Shown here: positions 39,000 through 47,439 of the stretch, in pieces
Layout: every line of letters starts with the position of its first letter
Numbering within the stretch: position 1 is the stretch's first letter
Assembly: GCA_000165345.1 (NCBI GenBank)
Contig: CM000430.1
Location: 64,001 to 128,000 of the forward strand
Reading direction: 5' to 3'
DNA length: 64,000 nt
Program-made: the position numbers and the translations under genes
Notes under the pieces: model-generated
What the model was told of the DNA's origin: nothing
What the model saw: the letters and a program-made list of their open reading frames with translations, nothing else
Databases searched by the model: none

Positions 39000-40415
39000 T
39001 CAAGCACTCATATCTAAAATAAATCCATACTTGACAGAATCAGGATCATTTAGTTTTCGAGGATCAATTTGAGCTCCAAATGTTGCTGAGATATTTTTTG
39101 TAAAATTATGAGTCAAAGAATATGCCATTTTTAAATTATTCATTACTTTAAATCTTAAATCAGTACTCTTCATATTATTAGTCATAGATCCAAAGGAAAT
39201 CTTACCTCCTATTGTATATTGAACTTTATCTGAAAATTTTGTTAAATAATTTTCATAATAAGTTTTTGATACTTTATTTTTGGTGATTAATCCTAATCCA
39301 TTATCTTCAATTTGTTGAATATTATCTTCATTATTATTTCCATTATTATTTTCAGTATTATAAGATATCATTAAGCCTAAAGTTAAATAATTTCTAACTA
39401 AATTGTTTAATATTAATCCTCCTGTAAATCCAGATAACTTATTATTTTGATGATTTGTATTAGTTTGTAATGATAAAACATAATTTGGTGTTAAAATAGA
39501 AATTGGACTTAATGTTGATGATCCTCCTATTCCTTCATATAAATCATTATTATCATTAGTATTATTATTATTACAAATCATACTATTCTTAAAACGTGAT
39601 CCAAAATTTTCTTTCTTATGTATTAAACCTTGATAATTAAATTGTTCATATCCTTGAGATCTTTCATTAATTGTATCTTTACAAGATCTCATAAATAAAG
39701 GTCCTTTAAGCATTAATCCCAACATTAATTTTAATGAATTCTTATTATTATTATTATGGGGTAAATTTATATTTGATGAAGATATCATTGATCCAAGACT
39801 TAAACTATTAATACAAGAAAATGGTCTTAAAGTTATTGTATTACTTAACATCATACCAATACTATCTTTATTTTCTTTATTAGATTTATTCAAACATCCT
39901 AATGTTTTTATTGTAGGAGATATTCTAAATCTTGATTGAATATATTCACCTTGAATATCTCCTCCAATTTCTAAACAACCTGATCCATTATTAGTATTAT
40001 TATATGATCCCAATGAATTTGTTAATTTTGGAAACCTTTCATATTTTGATGTTAAACTTATACCATAATATGGTTTTGTTTTTACTTCCATTATAGAAAT
40101 CCCATTCATATCCATTTTTGTTTCCATTTGTGATGAACATATATTCCATTTTAATGTTGAATTTCCATCCAATGAGAATATTTGTTTACTATTATTATTA
40201 CTATTATTTTCTCCACAACATCCATTTCCATCATTACAACATTTTGACTTATTTCCATTTTTTCCTCCATTAGAAGGTGTTGAAATATTATAACTAAATG
40301 AAGGATTCTTGCAAATACTTGTGAGATTTAACTCTAATAATTTATCTTTTTCTGTTGGATACTTGGACTTAAATAATCCAATTACTTCCTTATTAAAATC
40401 ACCAACTAGTACCAT
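39000..40415 (-). CDS. TOM40: Eukaryotic-porin-family beta-barrel protein, most likely mitochondrial/mitosomal outer-membrane Tom40, with Asn-rich low-complexity insertions.
   Basis: ATG at 40415. The N-terminus ..FKSKYPTEKDKLLE.. resembles the Tom40 NPGTFEE motif. The C-terminus ..KYGFILDMSA resembles the Tom40/VDAC terminal beta-strand (KFGFGL..). Alternating-hydrophobic strands run throughout. N-rich inserts include NNSNNNS, NNTNNGSG, CNNNNTNDNND and NTENNNGNNNEDN. Confidence 0.45.
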   Translation of the reverse strand: MVLVGDFNKEVIGLFKSKYPTEKDKLLELNLTSICKNPSFSYNISTPSNGGKNGNKSKCCNDGNGCCGENNSNNNSKQIFSLDGNSTLKWNICSSQMETKMDMNGISIMEVKTKPYYGISLTSKYERFPKLTNSLGSYNNTNNGSGCLEIGGDIQGEYIQSRFRISPTIKTLGCLNKSNKENKDSIGMMLSNTITLRPFSCINSLSLGSMISSSNINLPHNNNNKNSLKLMLGLMLKGPLFMRSCKDTINERSQGYEQFNYQGLIHKKENFGSRFKNSMICNNNNTNDNNDLYEGIGGSSTLSPISILTPNYVLSLQTNTNHQNNKLSGFTGGLILNNLVRNYLTLGLMISYNTENNNGNNNEDNIQQIEDNGLGLITKNKVSKTYYENYLTKFSDKVQYTIGGKISFGSMTNNMKSTDLRFKVMNNLKMAYSLTHNFTKNISATFGAQIDPRKLNDPDSVKYGFILDMSA

Positions 40416-40688
40416 TTTTTTTAATGTGTTTTCTTTTATTTTATATAATTTAAATTGTAAATCTTATTATTAATACTAAATTACTTATTATTAATATTAT
40501 TCTTTTCAATTTATTATTTTATATTAAAATACAAACTGATATATATAATATTATTAAATGTATATTATATTTTTTTCTGTGTTTAAATAAATAATCCCTA
40601 ATTCAATCAAATTTATATTTAACCTTTAAAATTCATTCAATTAATTACTCCCTCTTTATCCAAACAACCAAAAAACTAACCAACAAAT

Positions 40689-40711
40689 CCCCCCCCCCTC
40701 CCACTCCCCCA
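40689..40711. promoter_or_regulatory. C-rich tract CCCCCCCCCCTCCCACTCCCCC ~280 bp upstream of Tom40. A similar CCCCCTCCCGCTCG lies at 30597..30610 upstream of family member 5.
   Basis: Homopolymeric C/G tracts are rare in this AT-rich sequence. Confidence 0.35.
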
Positions 40712-40866
40712 CAAAAAATAAACTATTATTAAAATTATTGAAATTATTAAAAAAAAAAATTATTAAATAGAAAATATCATATTTACTCTATTAAATATAT
40801 ATATATATATCTATATATATTTATTTAATCATTATTCCATATTTTCTATATTAATATTTGTTATTT

Positions 40867-42003
40867 TTACTTTGATAATGTATTTGTTACAATATCTTCA
40901 ATTGTACTAAATACCTGCTTAATCATTTTACCTCCATTTTGATTACTCTTTTTATTATCATTTTTTTTATTATTTTCATCAACATCATCCTCCTTTTCTA
41001 AATCCTTTACTTCATCATTATTATTATTAGACTTCTTCTTTAATCCATCAAAAACATCATTAACCTTCTCTTCAACTCTTTCTAATAAACCCTTCTTTGC
41101 TAATACTCTCAAATTGGATGTATTATTATAATATACAATTTCTGGTGTTTTGATTGGTGATGCTGTATCATTATACCTTTTACCATCACTACTTATACTT
41201 GTTTCATTATATAATGGATTATTCTTAATATTTTTATCACGATTATTATCTTCATTTTCATCATCATCTTCTTCTTCATCCCTATCTTGTACTATAATTC
41301 TCTCATTACCACTCAAACCAGCTCTATTAAAACCTGTTAATGTTGGAAACCTTTGTAAATAATCACTTTCCCTATTCAATAAATTATTAACAGGATTGTT
41401 TCCTGATGAAGAAGTTTGATTTCTTTGCATTAAAGATTCATTAGAATTCTGTAAATCATTATTTTGATTTCCATTAGATAATATTCCATCTTGTAAATCA
41501 TTAATAAATCCAGGTGTCATATTTTCCATAGGAATCATTACATCCATCTTTCTTTCATTTGATTCAGATTCATTACCTAAATATCTAAAATATGGTCCAG
41601 GTAATGGAGCATATGGTAATGGTGAAACATATCCAACTGGTCGTGTAAATACTCCTCCTGGTCTAGAGGTTGTTCTTGTGTATGAATATGAATAATTATA
41701 TGGATATCCTGGCACTCCTGCATATGGATATTGATATGAATATGTATATGGATATTGATATGAATAAGTATATGAATATGGGTATTGATATTGATATGGA
41801 TATGAGTAATACACAGGTTGTTCTACAAAATATGGACGATCCACAAATACTGTTTGATCTCCTACATAGCCTCCTCTTCTATGTCCAAGTGATCTTACTT
41901 CAGTAGTAGAATTCTTTTCTTGTTTTTGAGACTTAACTACATTTCCCAAGCATGCCAATATTAATATTATAACTGTTGTATTTTTTAATGTAAACTTGAC
42001 CAT
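40867..42003 (-). CDS. Secreted Tyr/Pro-repeat protein (378 aa) with an Asn/Asp/Glu-rich C-terminal half.
   Basis: ATG at 42003. Signal peptide MVKFTLKNTTVIILILACLGNVVKS. The core is YYSYPYQYQYPYSYTYSYQYPYTYSYQYPYAGVPGYPYNYSYSY, then PLPYAPLPGPYFRY. At the DNA level these are (TATCCATAT/TCATAT)-type repeats at ~41680-41830. Confidence 0.6.
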   Translation of the reverse strand: MVKFTLKNTTVIILILACLGNVVKSQKQEKNSTTEVRSLGHRRGGYVGDQTVFVDRPYFVEQPVYYSYPYQYQYPYSYTYSYQYPYTYSYQYPYAGVPGYPYNYSYSYTRTTSRPGGVFTRPVGYVSPLPYAPLPGPYFRYLGNESESNERKMDVMIPMENMTPGFINDLQDGILSNGNQNNDLQNSNESLMQRNQTSSSGNNPVNNLLNRESDYLQRFPTLTGFNRAGLSGNERIIVQDRDEEEDDDENEDNNRDKNIKNNPLYNETSISSDGKRYNDTASPIKTPEIVYYNNTSNLRVLAKKGLLERVEEKVNDVFDGLKKKSNNNNDEVKDLEKEDDVDENNKKNDNKKSNQNGGKMIKQVFSTIEDIVTNTLSK

Positions 42004-42489
42004 CTTTAATACTTGAAAAAAATTGGATATAAATATTGAAAAAAAAATTTCTAAATCTTCTTTATTTAATGTTTAAAAAAAATTGATTTATTTATATTAG
42101 TATTTATTTTATAGCTTCAATTGTCTTTATACCTTCTTCAGTCAATATTGAAACTATAAATATTATCACGATGATAAATAGTATTAATAATATTTTTATT
42201 GATTATTACTTGCAATAAAATATATATATATATATTATCAACTATATTTAATACAATAATTAAAAGTTATTATTATTCTCTTGAACAACCTTCAATTATT
42301 GTTATATATCTGAAAATTGAATTATATTTAAAATAAAAATAAAAATATTTTTATTAAAAATAAAATTCAAATTAATATACAAAAAATAAAAAAAGTAAAT
42401 TTTGTTATCTATTGTCCTCCTCATTATCTTTGGAAATTATTGATTCTTTTTATTACACGAATTTATTGTCCACATTAATATTATGATTA

Positions 42490-42518
42490 TTGCATGCATG
42501 CAATTTTACACGTGTTGT
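42490..42518. promoter_or_regulatory. TTGCATGCATGCAA palindrome plus TTTTACACGTGTTG (ACGTG box), ~490 bp upstream of the Tyr/Pro-repeat gene.
   Basis: Near-identical arrangement to 38601..38630 (TGCATGCATG-GATTTTACAACTTACGTGTC). Confidence 0.5.
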
Positions 42519-42721
42519 ATAAATCTTAATACCGGTATCAAATTAATGATGATATATATACGTAATAAATTACTTAATAATAAAATAATTCGTAATTATT
42601 ACGAATTAATTATTTATTAAAATTATTAATTATTACGTAATTATTATGTAATATATGTATATATATATTTTTTAATAATTAATATTAAAGGAAAAAAATA
42701 TTAAAATAATATTTAAAGGGC

Positions 42722-44149
42722 TTAACTAAATTTAATAGTAGAAAACTCTTTCTCAAAGCTATCAAATCTTTTTATAGCTTTTGATCTATTCAAATTTACA
42801 ATATCCATTGGATTATCATTTGAATATTCAACAAATCCACTCAAACCAGTAATATTCTCAAAATCTGTAAACTTTAAAACAGTATCTAAAAATTCACTCT
42901 CTGATTTAAGTAATTCATTTATAAAAGAAGGTATTGAATATCCAACTTTTGAACCTAATTTGCTTATTAATGGTATAATGTTTTCCTCACAACCTATTAA
43001 TTTATTTATAAAATCTTCAGGATCATTGATTATTCTCATCATCTGAAAATGATGTAAAATCTTATCTTTTTTTTCTTTTGATGCTAACTTTATATTAAAT
43101 ACTACACTTTCCTCTAATATATTGACTAAGTCATACCAGAAATCTTGCTCTTCCATCGGATCATTAAAAACCAATACTATTACTGTATTTTCATCAAAAT
43201 TTAATCCATTCTTTCCATCAATATTTTGAATAAATTTCATGATTTCCCTGCTTGGACGACCTACTTCCATATATTCAATATTATTTATCTTTATCATTAT
43301 ATTATATATCTCAATATGTTTCAAATATACTTGATGGGATATTATCATCTTATATTTAACATTTGCAATACTATTATTCTCTTTTTTAAGTCCTGCATTT
43401 ATTCTCATTTTTTCTTCTTCCCTTTTTTCTTTCTCTCTTTTGCTATTATATATATATTTTTTATAACTCACTATTCTTCCTTCCTCATAACAATCAAATA
43501 ACCAATCTAAATTTACTATTGTTTGGATATTATTTTTTTCTTTAACTTTATCAATAATTTCTCCTTCAAATTCTTCATTATTACAAATAAGTGCCAACTT
43601 TGTAACACTTGCTTTTAGTGGAACTTTGACCAAGTCATTATCATCATTACTTTCATTTTCATTTTTATTGTCATCATCAAATATTACTCTTGCTCCCATT
43701 TGCGTTTCTACAAATGAAACTAAAATACCAATATCATCCTTCTTACGTATATATTTTGGGCTCTTTTCTCTATTATTAAATCCTCCTATTGTTTTACTAT
43801 AACCTATAATATAAATCTGAAACCCTTTCAAAATATTATATTTAAAATTGCCATTTGGTCTAAAAAAAGGATGCCATTCTAATGAATAATTCCATTCGTC
43901 ATTCACTGATAACCATATCCAAAATGGAGTTCTTAATTTCTGATAATCTATACTTGTATGCCTATATCTATATCCTTTTGAATAATTACATATTAAATAA
44001 TCAACATCATCATCCATAATCTCACTATTTAATTCCAAAACTGTTCCCCCATTATTCTCAATATATTTTTTCCTTATCAGATTATTTTCATCATTTTCTT
44101 CAAATCCACTCAGTAGAAACCTCTTATTATTCCATATTTCTGAATTCAT
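42722..44149 (-). CDS. Tandem-BRCT-domain protein (475 aa).
   Basis: ATG at 44149. The first BRCT is KRFLLSGFEENDENNLIRKKYIENNGGTVLELNSEIMDDDVDYLICNY...LRTPFWIWLSVNDEW. The second is GFQIYIIGYSKT...ASVTKLALICNNEEFEGEIIDKVKEKNNIQTIVNLDWLFDC. The C-terminal half is helical. Confidence 0.65.
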   Translation of the reverse strand: MNSEIWNNKRFLLSGFEENDENNLIRKKYIENNGGTVLELNSEIMDDDVDYLICNYSKGYRYRHTSIDYQKLRTPFWIWLSVNDEWNYSLEWHPFFRPNGNFKYNILKGFQIYIIGYSKTIGGFNNREKSPKYIRKKDDIGILVSFVETQMGARVIFDDDNKNENESNDDNDLVKVPLKASVTKLALICNNEEFEGEIIDKVKEKNNIQTIVNLDWLFDCYEEGRIVSYKKYIYNSKREKEKREEEKMRINAGLKKENNSIANVKYKMIISHQVYLKHIEIYNIMIKINNIEYMEVGRPSREIMKFIQNIDGKNGLNFDENTVIVLVFNDPMEEQDFWYDLVNILEESVVFNIKLASKEKKDKILHHFQMMRIINDPEDFINKLIGCEENIIPLISKLGSKVGYSIPSFINELLKSESEFLDTVLKFTDFENITGLSGFVEYSNDNPMDIVNLNRSKAIKRFDSFEKEFSTIKFS

Positions 44150-44515: not shown

Positions 44516-45879
44516 TTAAACCATCTCAATTCCTATTTCTTCCATCAAATCTGAAGCCTAAAAATTAATTACATATTTATAATGATTTTATTCAAGTAAA
44601 ATTATTGATCATAATCCACTTGAATTAAAAACAACTTACCTTCCTTTCCATAGATTCTGAAAAAGTGTCCACTGCAGATTTACATGCAGATTTGAGCTTC
44701 TTTAACTTTGCCTGAAATTCAATAAATGATAAATTTTAAAATTAATATTAAAAAAATAACTTACCTGCTTTTTTAACAAGCTATTCTTTAACTCTTTTAA
44801 TTCATTAACTGGAATAATCTCACAATCGTCATCTAACATTTTTTCCTTTCTTGAAATCTCCTCTTTAAGTGATTTATTCTTTAAAATGCAAATAAAAATA
44901 ATTAAAGATAACATTTTAGAAAAGAATTAATGCGTTATAATATTTTATATATCAAATTTTTAAATTTATATTATAAACTTACCTTAAGATTTTCTTGCAT
45001 TATTTTCTCTTCTAATTCGTCAATAGTTAATGGAACACTTATATTTCTTGTTTCTTGTTTAAGTTGTTTAAGCCTCACTTCCAAATCATTCAATTCTGAC
45101 TCGCAAACAGAAATACTTTTATCCAAAGCTTCCATTTCATCCTTGTTTAATTCTTTACAGTCACTTTGGTCTACTAAATATACTTTTTGTTTTCCATACT
45201 CCTTGCATATAAACTTCCCCTCGACAGCAAGACGTTCCATTTCATCAGTTACTTGCTTCTTTGAGTATACATTATGCAAATTATCAACCACATTTTGTAC
45301 TGAATATGGACGATTCTGCTCTTTCATATAGTTAAATATTGCCTCTCCTGCATCTCCTGCTGCTGATCCTCCCCCTGAATTTGCAACATTCCTCTTTGTC
45401 AAATTCTTTGGAGCAGACAGTTTCTTTTTCTTTGCCGGCTTTGTACTTTTATCTTCATCATCAGATTCTAATTCATCTTCCACTGAACTTTCTTTAGATG
45501 ATTGTTTTTTTGGTTTTGCAGGTTTTGAGTTAATAGACTCCCCCCCTTTTTTCTTTGTTGTACTTTTTTTGCCTTTTTTACCCTTTTCAAATTCTTCTTC
45601 TTCTAAATCCAAGTCATTTTCATCATCTTCATCATCACTATCTTCGTCTCCTTCATCTATAAAATCCATTTCCTCATCAAAATCACTCTCAAAATCATCC
45701 AATTCATCATCTTCATCATCAAAATCTGTGTATTTTACAACTTTTCTAGAATTTCTTGATGGTCTAACTTGAGATTTACTTTCCATATTATCATCTTCCA
45801 TTTTACTCTGTTGTGTTTCATCCAATCCTGTTCCTTCTTCTTCCATATTATTACCTTCTTCTTTGCTTCTTTTTACCAT
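44516..45879 (-). CDS. HOP2: Hop2/TBPIP meiotic homologous-pairing protein with a long acidic/lysine-rich N-terminal extension. Four exons: join(~44516..44557, ~44641..44710, ~44764..44877, ~44983..45879).
   Basis: ATG at 45879. Winged helix ..EAIFNYMKEQNRPYSVQNVVDNLHNVYSKKQVTDEMERLAVEGKFICKEYGKQKVYLVDQSD aligns with human HOP2 (YLQEQNRPYSAQDV...EGKIKEKTYGKQKIYFADQ). The track ORF reads through a GTAAGT donor after ..QENLK. Downstream exons NKSLKEEISRKEKMLDDDCEIIPVNELKELKNSLLKKQ | AKLKKLKSACKSAVDTFSESMERK | ASDLMEEIGIEMV* are each flanked by GTAAGT...(T)nAG introns of ~55-95 nt. The C-terminal EEIGIE matches the HOP2 tail FFEEVGIETDED. Confidence 0.65.
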
Positions 45880-46328: not shown

Positions 46329-47255
46329 TTAAGATTTAACTTTGTTTTTACCAGAAACATTTAATCCAATAATAGTCTTGAAAGAATCATAAACCCACCA
46401 TTGCATCCCTGTTAATGTACCAATCATAATAATTCTTGTGCCCAAACCTGCTGTACACAAGTTCTTTATACCGATTTCTCTAGTCATAGATAATACGTTA
46501 ATTCTTTTGGAGCTATTATATGCAGCTTTTCCAAGCTGAGAAATTATAGTATCAGCTGGGTGTGATACAATAGCGCATATAATTCCAGATAAATAGCCTG
46601 ATAAAAATGTTATACCAAGCCTTGATTTCTTACTATATGATTCTTTAGGTTTAGTAAAGACTTTATCATAAAACATTTGATTAATTCTCTCAAAAAAATA
46701 GAATTTTGCCATTGTATAAGGAATTTGACGATACCATAAAGGCTTAATACTTCCAAAAGGAAATTTTGTTTCTGATCTATATTTATACATATTACTAGCT
46801 GATTTTAGAAAAGAGTTTGGTAATAAATCTGGCCTTGTACAAGTTTGCATTTTTATTTTTATCATTTCCATTGGACATAATGCTATGTCTGCAAAAAATT
46901 CTGCTGTTGCTGATGCTCCAAGCCAAATCAATCCTTTATGAGATTCTTTATTTGTTGTTAGAATCTTGCTAGAATATAAATCTTTAAAGTATTCATACAA
47001 GCCATATTTTAACGCACCTTGTGCTGAATAACCAATTAAAGTTGGTGCCCATCCTAATCTCAGTGCCTTTACTCCTTCAAATCTTATTATTTTAGATAAA
47101 GTTGGAACTAAGCTCCTAAATTTATCTGGGTAAACTTGTATTCTGCATTTAGCTACATCTATTGGAACAATTGCGGTGTGGGTTAGACCACAACTTAATG
47201 CTCCACCTAATGCACAGTTTAAGTAATAGTTTACATTTCTTTTCTTTTCTTTCAT
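46329..47255 (-). CDS. PIC: Mitochondrial phosphate carrier protein (SLC25A3/PiC family).
   Basis: The first ATG is probably codon 4 of the track ORF, because the track's 47264 reads GTG. [32 protein letters not shown]...[20 protein letters not shown]...[21 protein letters not shown]...[15 protein letters not shown]...[10 protein letters not shown] align closely with the human SLC25A3 blocks [31 protein letters not shown] / [21 protein letters not shown] / RQIPYTMMKF. Confidence 0.9.
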   Translation of the reverse strand: [308 protein letters not shown]

Positions 47256-47439
47256 AAGTAACACTGAATTTTGAAATTTACTCCTCTTTAATAATTTTGT
47301 TTTTTCATTTCAATATATATTATTACTTATTTTACTAATAGGCAATATTCTTTCAAAATTTTACTTTTAATATAATACTACACCTTTTCTTCTTCTAATA
47401 TTAATTATATTAAGATTATATATGTATATATTTATTTAA

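What the first reader, a model, noticed from the sequence alone, without database searches (positions are those of the whole stretch)
40867..42003. Secreted Tyr/Pro-repeat protein, a candidate dityrosine cross-linked wall component
After a signal peptide the protein carries ~45 residues of almost pure Y-P-Y-Q/S-Y repeats (YPYQYQYPYSYTYSYQYPYTYSYQYPY...YPYNYSYSY), then PLPYAPLPGPY, then a long Asn/Asp/Glu-rich acidic tail. Tyrosine-rich secreted proteins are the substrates for peroxidase-mediated dityrosine cross-linking in coccidian oocyst walls. Cryptosporidium wall proteins described so far are mainly Cys-rich COWPs, so a Tyr-rich wall candidate would be notable.
Basis: inference. Interest (0 to 1): 0.5.

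Follow-up and report, generated by a model that had tools for sequence, protein, structure and literature searches.

The report
Tyrosine-rich female-gamete protein of Cryptosporidium
This is a real Cryptosporidium parvum gene (cgd2_490) for a secreted, disordered, tyrosine-rich protein made by female gametes and abundant in oocysts; it is laid out like the tyrosine-rich wall precursors of Eimeria, a class that Cryptosporidium was thought to lack, but its place in the wall and any tyrosine cross-linking are unproven.

Summary
The minus-strand ORF 40867-42003 is the annotated C. parvum Iowa II protein EAK88888.1 (378 aa). By gene order it is cgd2_490. After a signal peptide, residues 64-108 hold 21 Tyr in 45 residues in strict Y-x alternation. 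Orthologues exist only in Cryptosporidium but across the whole genus, including syntenic genes in C. muris and C. serpentis. All share one layout: signal peptide, invariant RSLGH, a Tyr/Pro domain, invariant RYL, a variable linker (acidic in C. parvum) and conserved C-terminal helices. Mature proteins have no Cys (one of ten has one).

The transcript is female-specific (log2 about 1.4 asexual, 8.6-10.7 female). The protein is in an oocyst-wall proteome signature and is abundant in oocyst proteomes. Tandel et al. 2019 listed it among "oocyst wall proteins". No localisation exists.

The layout matches published descriptions of Eimeria GAM56/GAM82, where RxL-type motifs flank a Tyr-alternating domain. 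No sequence homology is detectable.

Dityrosine cross-linking is unsupported: the literature states that Cryptosporidium walls lack dityrosines.

Verdict: a plausible GAM-like wall precursor, a new member of a known kind, of moderate interest.

The parts
40867..42003 (-). Complete single-exon CDS, 378 aa plus stop. It is C. parvum EAK88888.1/Q5CU33, and cgd2_490 by gene order.
   Evidence: exact sequence match. The gene ID is inferred from neighbours: cgd2_500 BRCT, cgd2_510 Hop2 and cgd2_520 mitochondrial carrier.
41929..42003 (-). Signal peptide, residues 1-25 (predicted cleavage VKS|QK).
   Evidence: It is the only hydrophobic segment. Hydrophobic N-termini are present in all orthologues. 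A C. canis orthologue is annotated 'signal peptide protein'.
41881..41895 (-). Invariant RSLGH motif (residues 37-41), the N-terminal RxL(G) flank of the Tyr domain. Candidate processing site.
   Evidence: Invariant in all 16 sequences aligned, including C. muris and C. serpentis. Eimeria GAMs have RxL/RxLG in the same position. Cleavage itself is inferred.
41680..41814 (-). Core Tyr/Pro repeat, residues 64-108: 21 Tyr in 45 residues, strict Y-x alternation.
   Evidence: Tyr positions 65, 66, 68, 70, 84, 86, 90 and 104 are invariant genus-wide.
41722..41804 (.). DNA tandem array behind the repeat: period 6 (CCATAT = Pro-Tyr on the coding strand) nested in period 24 (an 8-residue unit).
   Evidence: Tandem Repeats Finder. 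C. parvum and C. hominis differ by a YQ indel here.
41590..41622 (-). PLPYAPLPGPY proline-rich stretch, residues 128-138.
   Evidence: P133 and Y138 are invariant in all 10 species of alignment A2. The stretch becomes PPPPPY in the C. bovis clade, C. felis and the gastric species.
41575..41586 (-). Invariant RYL (RYLG in most species), residues 140-143. This is the C-terminal RxL flank of the Tyr domain and a candidate processing site.
   Evidence: R140, Y141 and L142 are invariant. All or nearly all Tyr of every orthologue lie between RSLGH and RYL.
41122..41577 (-). Acidic, Asn/Asp/Glu-rich linker, residues 143-294, variable in length and sequence, with 8 N-x-S/T sequons.
   Evidence: pI 4.26. 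Poorly aligned and length-variable across species. pLDDT below 50.
41017..41121 (-). Conserved predicted helix, residues 295-329 (NLRVLAKKGLLERVEEKVNDVFDGLKKK).
   Evidence: AlphaFold2 helices 295-302 and 306-329. Conserved in intestinal species and recognisable in C. muris.
40873..40935 (-). Conserved amphipathic C-terminal helix, residues 357-377 (KMIKQVFSTIEDIVTNTL).
   Evidence: AlphaFold2 helix 357-377. Helical hydrophobic moment 0.57. It aligns with C. muris ILNDVIGSIETVVTNVV within a BLASTP local alignment covering residues 301-376 (E = 1e-5).
42004..42721 (-). Upstream intergenic region, presumed promoter, holding one TGCATGCA at -499 and one CCAAT at -23.
   Evidence: The motif names follow Oberstaller 2013. 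No function was tested.

Best explanation
cgd2_490 encodes a genus-wide Cryptosporidium precursor protein. It is transcribed in the female gamete and enters the secretory pathway through its signal peptide. It ends up in the oocyst as a structural wall or wall-associated component.

The protein is intrinsically disordered and has two halves. The first is a basic domain of about 100 residues carrying 15-27 tyrosines in Y-x alternation, bounded by two invariant RxL motifs (RSLGH and RYL). The second is a variable half (acidic in C. parvum) that ends in two conserved helices, the last of them clearly amphipathic.

I propose that it behaves like the Eimeria GAM56/GAM82 wall precursors. It would be stored in wall-forming bodies and cut at or near the RxL motifs. 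This would release a basic Tyr-rich peptide of about 12 kDa (pI about 9) that becomes insoluble in the proteinaceous inner wall. The insolubility would come from tyrosine-mediated interactions: beta-strand or pi-stacking self-assembly, or a covalent link other than the fluorescent dityrosine typical of Eimeria. The acidic C-terminal fragment of about 27 kDa would stay extractable.

Shown: the sequence features, their conservation, and (from published data) female-specific transcription and presence in oocysts.

Inferred: storage in wall-forming bodies, cleavage, incorporation into the wall, and the mode of assembly.
For: Sequence and conservation
- Strict Y-x repeat far beyond chance.
- Tyr columns are more conserved than their neighbours (0.78 vs 0.54).
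- Orthologues with the same layout occur across the genus: 13 by sequence search, plus syntenic genes in C. muris and C. serpentis.
- 15-27 Tyr in the 76-106 residues bounded by RSLGH and RYL in every species, which is all or nearly all of each protein's Tyr. Mature proteins have no Cys, except one Cys in one of ten.
- AlphaFold2 predicts disorder (mean pLDDT 42.9) apart from the signal peptide and the C-terminal helices. Eimeria GAM56 has likewise been described as an intrinsically unstructured protein (title of Mai 2011, cited).

Published expression and proteomics
- log2 expression is 1.4 in asexual stages, 8.6 in females in vitro and 10.7 in females in vivo.
- In bulk samples the three triplicate groups read about 5.4, 0.05 and 8.2. 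By the design I take these to be sporozoites, 24 h culture and 48 h culture.
- The gene is in the 85-gene oocyst-wall proteome signature (criterion) and in the 15-gene 'oocyst wall proteins' heat-map list.
- TMT log2 abundance is 21.8 in excysted oocysts. Only 2 of the first 48 proteins of that table are higher.
- After AP2-F ablation the transcript rises (+1.36), while crystalloid-body genes fall.

Parallel with Eimeria
- GAM56/82 are described as a signal peptide plus a Tyr domain in which Tyr alternates with Ser/Gly/Pro. That domain is flanked N-terminally by RxL/RxLG/RNMG and C-terminally by RRL. The N-terminal motifs are thought to mark processing sites, because they flank the small wall peptides.

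Consistency with mass spectrometry
- The Tyr core sits in a 67-residue tryptic peptide that standard proteomics cannot see. All detection therefore reports on the C-terminal half.
Against: - No localisation of this protein exists.
- The wall-proteome signature also holds cytosolic and sporozoite proteins.
- If cgd2_490 is one of the five POWPs, those were found only in trace amounts in purified walls.
- High abundance in SDS/DTT extracts of excysted oocysts, and recovery of 3 peptides in an antibody pull-down from cells 3 h after infection, show that at least part of the protein is soluble.
- No homology to Eimeria GAMs or to any non-Cryptosporidium protein was detected in an exhaustive profile search. 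The resemblance rests on layout and composition only.
- The resemblance to GAMs comes from a paper's description, not from an alignment I could make.
- The role of the RxL motifs as cleavage sites is conjecture.
Confidence: 0.5

Rival explanations
1. One reading: the Tyr-rich domain is a substrate of a peroxidase and is built into the wall through dityrosine bonds, as in Eimeria.
For: - The composition and Y-x-Y spacing suit oxidative Tyr coupling.
- In Eimeria, Tyr-rich GAM proteins are assumed to be cross-linked by peroxidases.
- The female gamete strongly up-regulates redox enzymes, among them an amine oxidase (cgd3_3430, log2 1.3 to 10.7-11.9) and a glutathione peroxidase (cgd3_460), and the amine oxidase has an Eimeria orthologue. 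From general enzymology, amine oxidases produce H2O2.
- The statement that Cryptosporidium lacks dityrosines cites the Eimeria dityrosine paper and a genome database rather than chemistry on Cryptosporidium walls.
Against: - Bushkin 2013 states that dityrosine cross-linked proteins are absent from Cryptosporidium walls.
- Lists of autofluorescent coccidian oocysts name Cyclospora, Cystoisospora and Sarcocystis, not Cryptosporidium.
- No haem peroxidase, peroxidasin, tyrosinase, multicopper oxidase or NADPH oxidase appears by name in the Tandel tables I searched. Three of the five files with hits (the expression and orthologue tables) were truncated when stored.
Confidence: 0.15
2. The protein is made by the female or zygote but works inside the oocyst or on or for the sporozoite rather than as a wall building block. 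Examples are oocyst-lumen matrix, residual body, sporozoite tethers, or a secreted factor released at excystation.
For: - It is extractable and abundant in excysted oocyst lysates.
- Peptides were recovered from host cells 3 h after infection in an anti-DG8 pull-down (log2 enrichment 3.89, 3 unique peptides, 6 PSMs).
- Residual mRNA in the triplicate I take to be sporozoites (about log2 5.4).
- Several genes grouped with it in the 2019 'oocyst wall proteins' list carry LCCL/CCp-type domains, one of them (cgd2_790) falls on AP2-F ablation with the crystalloid-body genes, so that list is not proof of wall location.
Against: - The pull-down signal is below the authors' own threshold of more than 30 PSMs, and the inoculum was 150 million oocysts, so wall debris and oocyst contents were present.
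- Detection is blind to the Tyr domain. A soluble C-terminal fragment is compatible with a wall-bound N-terminal fragment.
- A strictly conserved Tyr-alternating domain has no known precedent in apicomplexan invasion proteins (own knowledge).
Confidence: 0.25
3. It is a crystalloid-body protein of the sporozoite, like the CCp/LCCL proteins listed beside it.
For: It is female-specific, has a signal peptide, and was listed together with CCp1-3 (cgd7_1730, cgd7_300, cgd2_790).
Against: - On AP2-F ablation crystalloid-body transcripts fall (cgd2_790: -1.25) whereas cgd2_490 rises (+1.36).
- It has none of the adhesive domains described for crystalloid proteins (no Pfam domain).
Confidence: 0.05
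4. The repeat is a neutral low-complexity expansion in a fast-evolving protein and has no specific role.
For: - The DNA is a slippage-prone period-6/24 array.
- Repeat number varies between species, and even between C. parvum and C. hominis.
- The middle of the protein evolves fast.
Against: - The domain, its Tyr positions and both flanking motifs are kept from intestinal to gastric species, while the rest of the protein diverges beyond BLAST recognition.
- Synteny is conserved.
- Expression is strong and stage-specific.
Confidence: 0.03

Closest known systems
Eimeria gametocyte antigens GAM56 and GAM82 (Tyr-rich oocyst wall precursors of wall-forming bodies type II)
   Same: - Signal peptide and macrogamete expression.
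- Intrinsically disordered.
- A Tyr-rich domain in which Tyr alternates with small residues and Pro.
- The domain is bounded by conserved Arg-x-Leu-type motifs (RxL/RxLG on the N-side, RRL on the C-side in Eimeria; RSLGH and RYL(G) here).
- A variable, non-conserved C-terminal region.

   Different: - No detectable sequence homology.
- In Eimeria the Tyr positions are described as poorly conserved, whereas here many are invariant across the genus.
- GAM56 has a CxxC after the RRL motif. This protein has no Cys.
- Wall location, processing and dityrosine/DOPA cross-links are reported for Eimeria but untested here, and dityrosines are reported absent from Cryptosporidium walls.
- Conserved amphipathic C-terminal helices are not described for the GAMs.
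Toxoplasma gondii small Tyr-rich oocyst proteins (Fritz et al. 2012; e.g. TGME49_116550, _081590, _087250)
   Same: The class is defined by composition, not homology: a signal sequence and more than 5% Tyr, found in oocyst wall or sporocyst fractions, with no BLAST similarity to the Eimeria GAMs. cgd2_490 has 8.5% Tyr overall, 9.1% in the mature protein and 26% between the two motifs.
   Different: - No sequence relationship was detected.
- Toxoplasma walls autofluoresce and peroxidase homologues were found in the oocyst fractions. Neither is known for Cryptosporidium.
Cryptosporidium oocyst wall proteins COWP1-9
   Same: Same organism; signal peptide; no TM segment; female-gamete expression; co-listed as oocyst wall proteins.
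   Different: COWPs are Cys-rich, with a Cys every 10th-12th residue, and all nine have been localised to the wall or suture. This protein has no Cys after the signal peptide, is disordered, and has not been localised.
Plant extensins (hydroxyproline-rich wall glycoproteins with Tyr-x-Tyr cross-linking motifs)
   Same: Secreted, Pro- and Tyr-containing, extended wall proteins in which Y-x-Y motifs are the sites of oxidative coupling (isodityrosine). This comparison is from my own knowledge and was not tested.
   Different: No Ser-(Pro)n repeats, no relationship by sequence, a different kingdom. It is offered only as an analogy for how Y-x-Y spacing can be used.

Membership tests
Coccidian Tyr-rich gametocyte/oocyst-wall precursor class (Eimeria GAM56/GAM82; Toxoplasma Tyr-rich proteins) | N-terminal signal peptide, no membrane anchor | tested here: met
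   Single hydrophobic N-terminal segment, no other hydrophobic window. Conserved in orthologues.
Coccidian Tyr-rich gametocyte/oocyst-wall precursor class (Eimeria GAM56/GAM82; Toxoplasma Tyr-rich proteins) | More than 5% Tyr, concentrated in a domain where Tyr alternates with Ser/Gly/Pro | tested here: met
   8.5% Tyr overall and 47% in residues 64-108; 26% in residues 41-142. Tyr alternates with P/S/T/Q.
Coccidian Tyr-rich gametocyte/oocyst-wall precursor class (Eimeria GAM56/GAM82; Toxoplasma Tyr-rich proteins) | Conserved Arg-x-Leu-type motifs flanking the Tyr-rich domain (Eimeria GAMs) | tested here: met
   RSLGH (37-41) and RYL (140-142) are invariant in all species, and 15-27 Tyr (all or nearly all of each protein's Tyr) lie between them. 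This is a motif-level match only.
Coccidian Tyr-rich gametocyte/oocyst-wall precursor class (Eimeria GAM56/GAM82; Toxoplasma Tyr-rich proteins) | Detectable sequence homology to GAM56/GAM82 | tested here: not met
   The exhaustive profile search of 1.84 billion representatives returned only Cryptosporidium proteins. The same search also missed the syntenic C. muris orthologue, so its reach for this composition is limited. Toxoplasma members of the class also lack such homology.
Coccidian Tyr-rich gametocyte/oocyst-wall precursor class (Eimeria GAM56/GAM82; Toxoplasma Tyr-rich proteins) | Macrogamete-specific expression | tested here: met
   Published RNA-seq: log2 1.4 asexual, 8.6 female in vitro, 10.7 female in vivo. 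This relies on the assignment of the ORF to cgd2_490 by gene order.
Coccidian Tyr-rich gametocyte/oocyst-wall precursor class (Eimeria GAM56/GAM82; Toxoplasma Tyr-rich proteins) | Storage in wall-forming bodies and incorporation into the oocyst wall | not testable with these tools
   Only indirect evidence: the wall-proteome signature. No tagging or immuno-EM was found (one search returned no papers).
Coccidian Tyr-rich gametocyte/oocyst-wall precursor class (Eimeria GAM56/GAM82; Toxoplasma Tyr-rich proteins) | Proteolytic processing into small Tyr-rich peptides | not testable with these tools
   Predicted fragment H41-L142 is 12.2 kDa with pI 9.1. There are no experimental data.
Coccidian Tyr-rich gametocyte/oocyst-wall precursor class (Eimeria GAM56/GAM82; Toxoplasma Tyr-rich proteins) | Dityrosine/DOPA cross-links and blue UV autofluorescence of the wall | not testable with these tools
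   The literature states that Cryptosporidium walls lack dityrosines. This counts against this feature but was not measured on this protein.
COWP family (Cryptosporidium oocyst wall proteins) | Cys-rich repeats, with a Cys every 10th-12th residue | tested here: not met
   Zero Cys after the signal peptide in 9 of 10 species and one Cys in the tenth. No Pfam domain.
POWPs (five 'possible oocyst wall proteins' of Chatterjee et al. 2010) | Identified by mass spectrometry in excysted, purified oocyst walls | tested here: inconclusive
   The Tandel 2019 list has nine COWP-family IDs (my reading of the IDs), cgd7_4810, and five others that include cgd2_490. Five POWPs are reported. The identity is my inference, because the 2010 paper could not be read.

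The most novel reading that the evidence does not exclude
Cryptosporidium, held up as the model of a purely cysteine/disulfide (COWP) and lipid wall, also has an Eimeria-type tyrosine-based wall component. On this reading, RxL-flanked, Tyr-alternating, disordered precursors made by the female gamete are an ancestral apicomplexan wall-hardening device that predates the split of Cryptosporidium from the coccidia. The Tyr domain would be covalently coupled by chemistry that escapes the classic blue-autofluorescence test, or would be too scarce to be seen by it.
Probability: 0.15. Interest if true: 0.7.

Novelty: new member of a known kind. Interest (0 to 1): 0.45.

Why it matters
The oocyst wall is what makes Cryptosporidium resistant to chlorine and transmissible by water. 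Its protein inventory is still essentially the nine COWPs.

The field repeats a dichotomy: Eimeria has Tyr-rich, dityrosine walls and Cryptosporidium has Cys-rich, disulfide walls. A genus-wide, female-specific, abundant, Cys-free, Tyr-rich secreted protein with a GAM-like layout would blur that dichotomy.

It would also add a non-COWP structural candidate that is easy to test with the tagging and knockout tools already used for COWP2-9.

There is a practical blind spot as well. The Tyr domain lies in a 67-residue tryptic peptide, so ordinary proteomics cannot report on its fate.

Tried and rejected
- **Pfam.** Scan of the protein: no family.
- **Exhaustive profile search.** The search of 1.84 billion representatives found only Cryptosporidium sequences. 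It even missed the C. muris orthologue, which I then found by synteny through Hop2.
- **Search through the porin-like neighbour.** This did not reach gastric species.
- **AlphaFold2.** The model was low confidence (pLDDT 42.9), so I ran no fold search; matches would have been meaningless.
- **PDB profile search.** Only insignificant hits to helical or acidic proteins, E at least 0.078.
- **Literature that could not be reached.** The hyperLOPIT paper (Guerin 2023), Walzer 2024, Chatterjee 2010 and Samuelson 2013 are not held. I therefore could not check the hyperLOPIT compartment, the single-cell expression wave or the POWP numbering. Full-text searches for Q5CU33, CPATCC_000903 and cgd2_490 found no papers.
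- **Plus-strand ORF 41670-41906.** This 78-aa ORF (MNMYMDIDMN...) is rejected as a mirror-frame artefact of the repeat.
- **Crystalloid-body reading.** Considered and largely rejected on the AP2-F data.
- **Promoter scan.** It gave one TGCATGCA and one CCAAT, and no E2F or GCACAC motif. This is too little to classify the gene.
Full report
**What is there**

The window is Cryptosporidium parvum Iowa II, from a contig of about 0.99 Mb. The minus-strand ORF 40867-42003 translates to a 378-aa protein identical to EAK88888.1 / Q5CU33 / CPATCC_000903. It is 96% identical to the C. hominis orthologue. No Pfam family matches it.

I assigned the CryptoDB gene ID by gene order. The ORFs at 42722-44149 (BRCT), 44971-45879 (Hop2/TBPIP) and 46329-47264 (mitochondrial carrier) match cgd2_500 'BRCT domain containing protein', cgd2_510 'Homologous-pairing protein 2' and cgd2_520 'Mitochondrial carrier protein' in a published table. 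No ORF of 50 aa or more lies between the BRCT gene and the target. The target is therefore cgd2_490, and the porin-like gene at 39000-40415 is cgd2_480. This assignment is an inference, but a tight one.

**Check of the observation**

- The N-terminus is the only hydrophobic segment.
- Residues 64-108 contain 21 Tyr and 6 Pro in 45 residues, with unbroken (Y-x)n runs at 66-94 and 100-108.
- 26 of the 32 Tyr lie in residues 57-142.
- Y-x-Y occurs 18 times, against a mean of 2.6 (maximum 10) in 10,000 shuffles.
- PLPYAPLPGPY follows at residues 128-138. After that the protein is acidic and Asn-rich: net charge -14 over residues 143-290 and pI 4.26 for 143-294.
- At DNA level the repeat is a period-6 array (CCA-TAT) nested in a period-24 array at 41722-41804.
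- The plus-strand ORF across the repeat is a mirror-frame artefact.

**Conservation and anatomy**

Sequence searches find orthologues only in Cryptosporidium: 13 clusters by word-seeded search, and nothing further in an exhaustive profile search of 1.84 billion representatives.

The gastric lineage was not reached by sequence. I therefore went through the conserved neighbour Hop2 to the C. muris and C. serpentis contigs. In both, a gene of 268-269 aa sits between the BRCT and porin-like orthologues, in the same place as in C. parvum. Its product has the same layout. Adjacent locus tags in six other species show the same synteny. The gene is therefore genus-wide.

The alignment gives this architecture:
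- signal peptide;
- a short spacer;
- invariant RSLGH (residues 37-41);
- (V/I)(E/Q)(Q/R)PVYY followed by the Y-x repeat, mostly Y-P in the gastric species;
- a proline stretch;
- invariant RYL (140-142, usually RYLG);
- a linker that varies in length and sequence (acidic in C. parvum);
- two conserved predicted helices, residues 295-329 and 357-377. The last is clearly amphipathic, with hydrophobic moment 0.57.

In all ten species examined, the 76-106 residues bounded by RSLGH and RYL carry 15-27 Tyr, which is all or nearly all of each protein's Tyr. The mature protein has no Cys in nine of the ten and one Cys in the tenth. Tyr columns are more conserved than the other columns of that segment (0.78 vs 0.54).

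AlphaFold2 with the family alignment gives mean pLDDT 42.9. The only regular elements are the signal peptide and the C-terminal helices. The protein is thus predicted to be intrinsically disordered. I ran no fold search on such a model. A profile search of PDB sequences gave nothing significant.

**What published data say about cgd2_490**

- *Transcript.* In the supplement of Tandel et al. 2019 the transcript is essentially off in sorted asexual stages (log2 about 1.4). It is on in sorted females in vitro (about 8.6) and higher in females from mice (about 10.7). In the bulk-sample table the three triplicate groups read about 5.4, about 0.05 and about 8.2. By the experimental design I take these to be sporozoites, 24 h culture and 48 h culture; the column labels were not visible.
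- *Orthology.* Their orthology table lists the gene with no Eimeria counterpart in the visible rows, among other genes likewise listed without one.
- *Wall proteome.* It is in their 85-gene 'oocyst_proteomics_20' signature. [quoted passage not shown] It also contains actin, Hsp70, Hsp90 and GP900, so it is not clean.
- *Wall-protein list.* It is one of 15 genes plotted as 'oocyst wall proteins' for their Fig. 4b. By my reading of the IDs, nine of the 15 are COWP-family genes. One is cgd7_4810, which the authors tagged. The remaining five are cgd7_300, cgd2_790, cgd7_3120, cgd7_1730 and cgd2_490. They equal in number the five 'possible oocyst wall proteins' (POWPs) that Chatterjee et al. 2010 found in trace amounts in purified walls. 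I infer that cgd2_490 is one of them, but I could not read that paper.
- *Oocyst abundance.* In the TMT proteome of excysted oocysts of Bacchetti et al. 2025, cgd2_490 has log2 average intensity 21.8. Only 2 of the first 48 proteins in that table are higher.
- *AP2-F ablation.* After conditional loss of the female factor AP2-F, crystalloid-body transcripts fall but cgd2_490 rises by 1.36 log2 units.
- *Pull-down.* In an anti-DG8 pull-down from cells 3 h after infection, cgd2_490 is enriched (log2 3.89) with 3 unique peptides and 6 PSMs. This is below the authors' threshold, and the experiment used a 150-million-oocyst inoculum.
- *Main-text mentions.* No paper in the library mentions cgd2_490 in its main text. 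I found no localisation and no comment on its tyrosine content.

**Comparison with the tyrosine-rich wall proteins of coccidia**

The class is compositional. Fritz et al. 2012 defined Toxoplasma members as signal-sequence proteins with more than 5% Tyr, and found no BLAST similarity to Eimeria GAM56/82.

Wiedmer et al. 2017 describe the consensus of Eimeria GAM56 and GAM82 as follows:
- a signal peptide;
- Tyr-rich domains in which Tyr alternates with Ser, Gly or Pro;
- conserved RNMG/RxL/RxLG motifs on the N-terminal side;
- RRL motifs on the C-terminal side;
- a variable C-terminus.

The N-terminal motifs flank the small Tyr-rich peptides found in Eimeria, and those authors assume the RRL motif is also a processing site.

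The Cryptosporidium protein has the same order of parts. Both flanking Arg-x-Leu motifs are invariant from C. parvum to C. muris. If cleavage occurred there, it would release a 12.2-kDa peptide of pI 9.1 with 26% Tyr, and an acidic remainder of 26.8 kDa with pI 4.6.

This is a resemblance of layout, not demonstrated homology. I could compare only with the published description, not with Eimeria sequences.

**Mechanism**

The best-supported reading is a GAM-like precursor. It would be made by the macrogamete, routed through the secretory pathway, probably stored in wall-forming bodies and processed. Its Tyr domain would become part of the proteinaceous wall.

The steps differ in how well they are supported:
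- The sequence features, their conservation, female transcription and presence in oocysts are shown.
- Location, cleavage and assembly are inferred.

- Bushkin et al. 2013 state that dityrosine-cross-linked proteins are absent from Cryptosporidium walls.
- Later work treats Cryptosporidium as the disulfide paradigm.
- Lists of autofluorescent coccidian oocysts omit it.
- The only peroxidases named in the expression tables I could search are glutathione and thioredoxin peroxidases. A copper-type amine oxidase is among the most female-specific genes. Some of those tables were truncated in storage.

I therefore favour non-covalent assembly of the alternating-Tyr strands, or a non-dityrosine link. 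I give dityrosine itself about 0.15.

The absence claim cites the Eimeria paper and a genome database, not chemistry on Cryptosporidium walls, so it is not a strong negative.

There is one practical point. The Tyr core lies in a 67-residue tryptic peptide. All mass-spectrometric detections therefore report on the C-terminal half. A soluble C-terminal fragment is compatible with an insoluble N-terminal one.

**Rivals**

- An oocyst-internal or sporozoite-associated role (0.25). This rests on extractability and the weak 3 h pull-down signal.
- A crystalloid-body role (0.05). The AP2-F data contradict it.
- A neutral low-complexity expansion (0.03). Genus-wide conservation of Tyr positions and flanks contradicts it.

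**Novelty and verdict**

The gene is annotated 'uncharacterized protein'. It was already on a published list of oocyst-wall candidates, so the wall idea is not new. Its expression and proteomic presence are already known.

Three things appear not to have been noted in the literature I could reach:
- it is a Tyr-rich, Cys-free, disordered protein with the GAM-type layout;
- that layout is conserved across the whole genus, gastric species included;
- this sits awkwardly with the textbook statement that Cryptosporidium lacks the tyrosine-based wall system.

I file it as a new member of a known kind, the compositional class of coccidian Tyr-rich gametocyte/wall precursors. Interest is moderate (0.45), and a direct experimental path exists.

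Noticed in passing
window 40688-40712 (intergenic, between the cgd2_490 stop and the cgd2_480 start): A run of C's on the plus strand (ccccccccctcccactccccc; GTGGGGGAGTGGGAGGGGGGGGGG on the gene strand) in a genome of 28% G+C. It lies about 155-180 nt downstream of the cgd2_490 stop codon. It could form a G-quadruplex, or be a 3'UTR or promoter element.
   Followed up: no
window 24205-33167, plus strand: A tandem cluster of seven small ORFs for secreted Ser-rich proteins. It is probably the mucin cluster cgd2_390-450 (MUC1-7) named. All share, 35-50 residues from the N-terminus, a short motif of the type [FS]-S-[LI]-[LI]-[KQN]-[LMI] (SFLNLR, FSILQIK, SFLKLR, MSLIKLK, FSLLKLT, FSLLQMN, HSLIKLS). 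Several have a CCC/CCCC run soon after it. This may be a shared processing or targeting signal.
   Followed up: no
window 39000-40415, minus strand (cgd2_480): The neighbouring 471-aa 'uncharacterized protein' has a weak eukaryotic-porin (Porin_3) match at its C-terminus (E = 1.3e-4, below the Pfam cut-off). It is abundant in the oocyst proteome (log2 21.3). It may be a divergent VDAC/Tom40-like beta-barrel of the mitosome, with long Asn-rich insertions. The C. muris orthologue is 341 aa, without the insertions.
   Followed up: partly
window 44971-45879, minus strand (cgd2_510, Hop2): The plain ORF is 302 aa, but annotated orthologues in C. hominis, C. tyzzeri and C. meleagridis are 364-373 aa at 91-98% identity. 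The real gene probably has an upstream exon or intron that the ORF list does not show. The gene is female-specific in Tandel 2019.
   Followed up: no
L002 14657-15133 (C. muris) and L003 5221-5697 (C. serpentis): The gastric species carry an extra 158-aa gene between the cgd2_490 and cgd2_480 orthologues. It has no counterpart in the 450-bp C. parvum intergenic region.
   Followed up: no
window 42502-42509 (499 nt upstream of the cgd2_490 ATG): A single palindromic TGCATGCA, in a 718-bp intergenic region with no 8-mer of 6 or more G+C. 'AP2_1-like motifs' are named upstream of Class II COWP genes by Oberstaller 2013, but the excerpt I read does not give their sequence; equating TGCATGCA with AP2_1 is from my own recollection.
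   Followed up: partly
L001 (Logan SRR31860995, 1297-bp contig), protein P0013: A divergent orthologue from an unidentified Cryptosporidium-like organism. It has the RSLGH, Tyr-domain and RYLG layout but a different, shorter C-terminus (233 aa) that lacks the conserved helices. The cause could be a frameshift, an assembly artefact, an intron or real divergence.
   Followed up: no
window 25956-26540: One ORF of the mucin cluster translates with an X, so the window holds an ambiguous base there.
   Followed up: no
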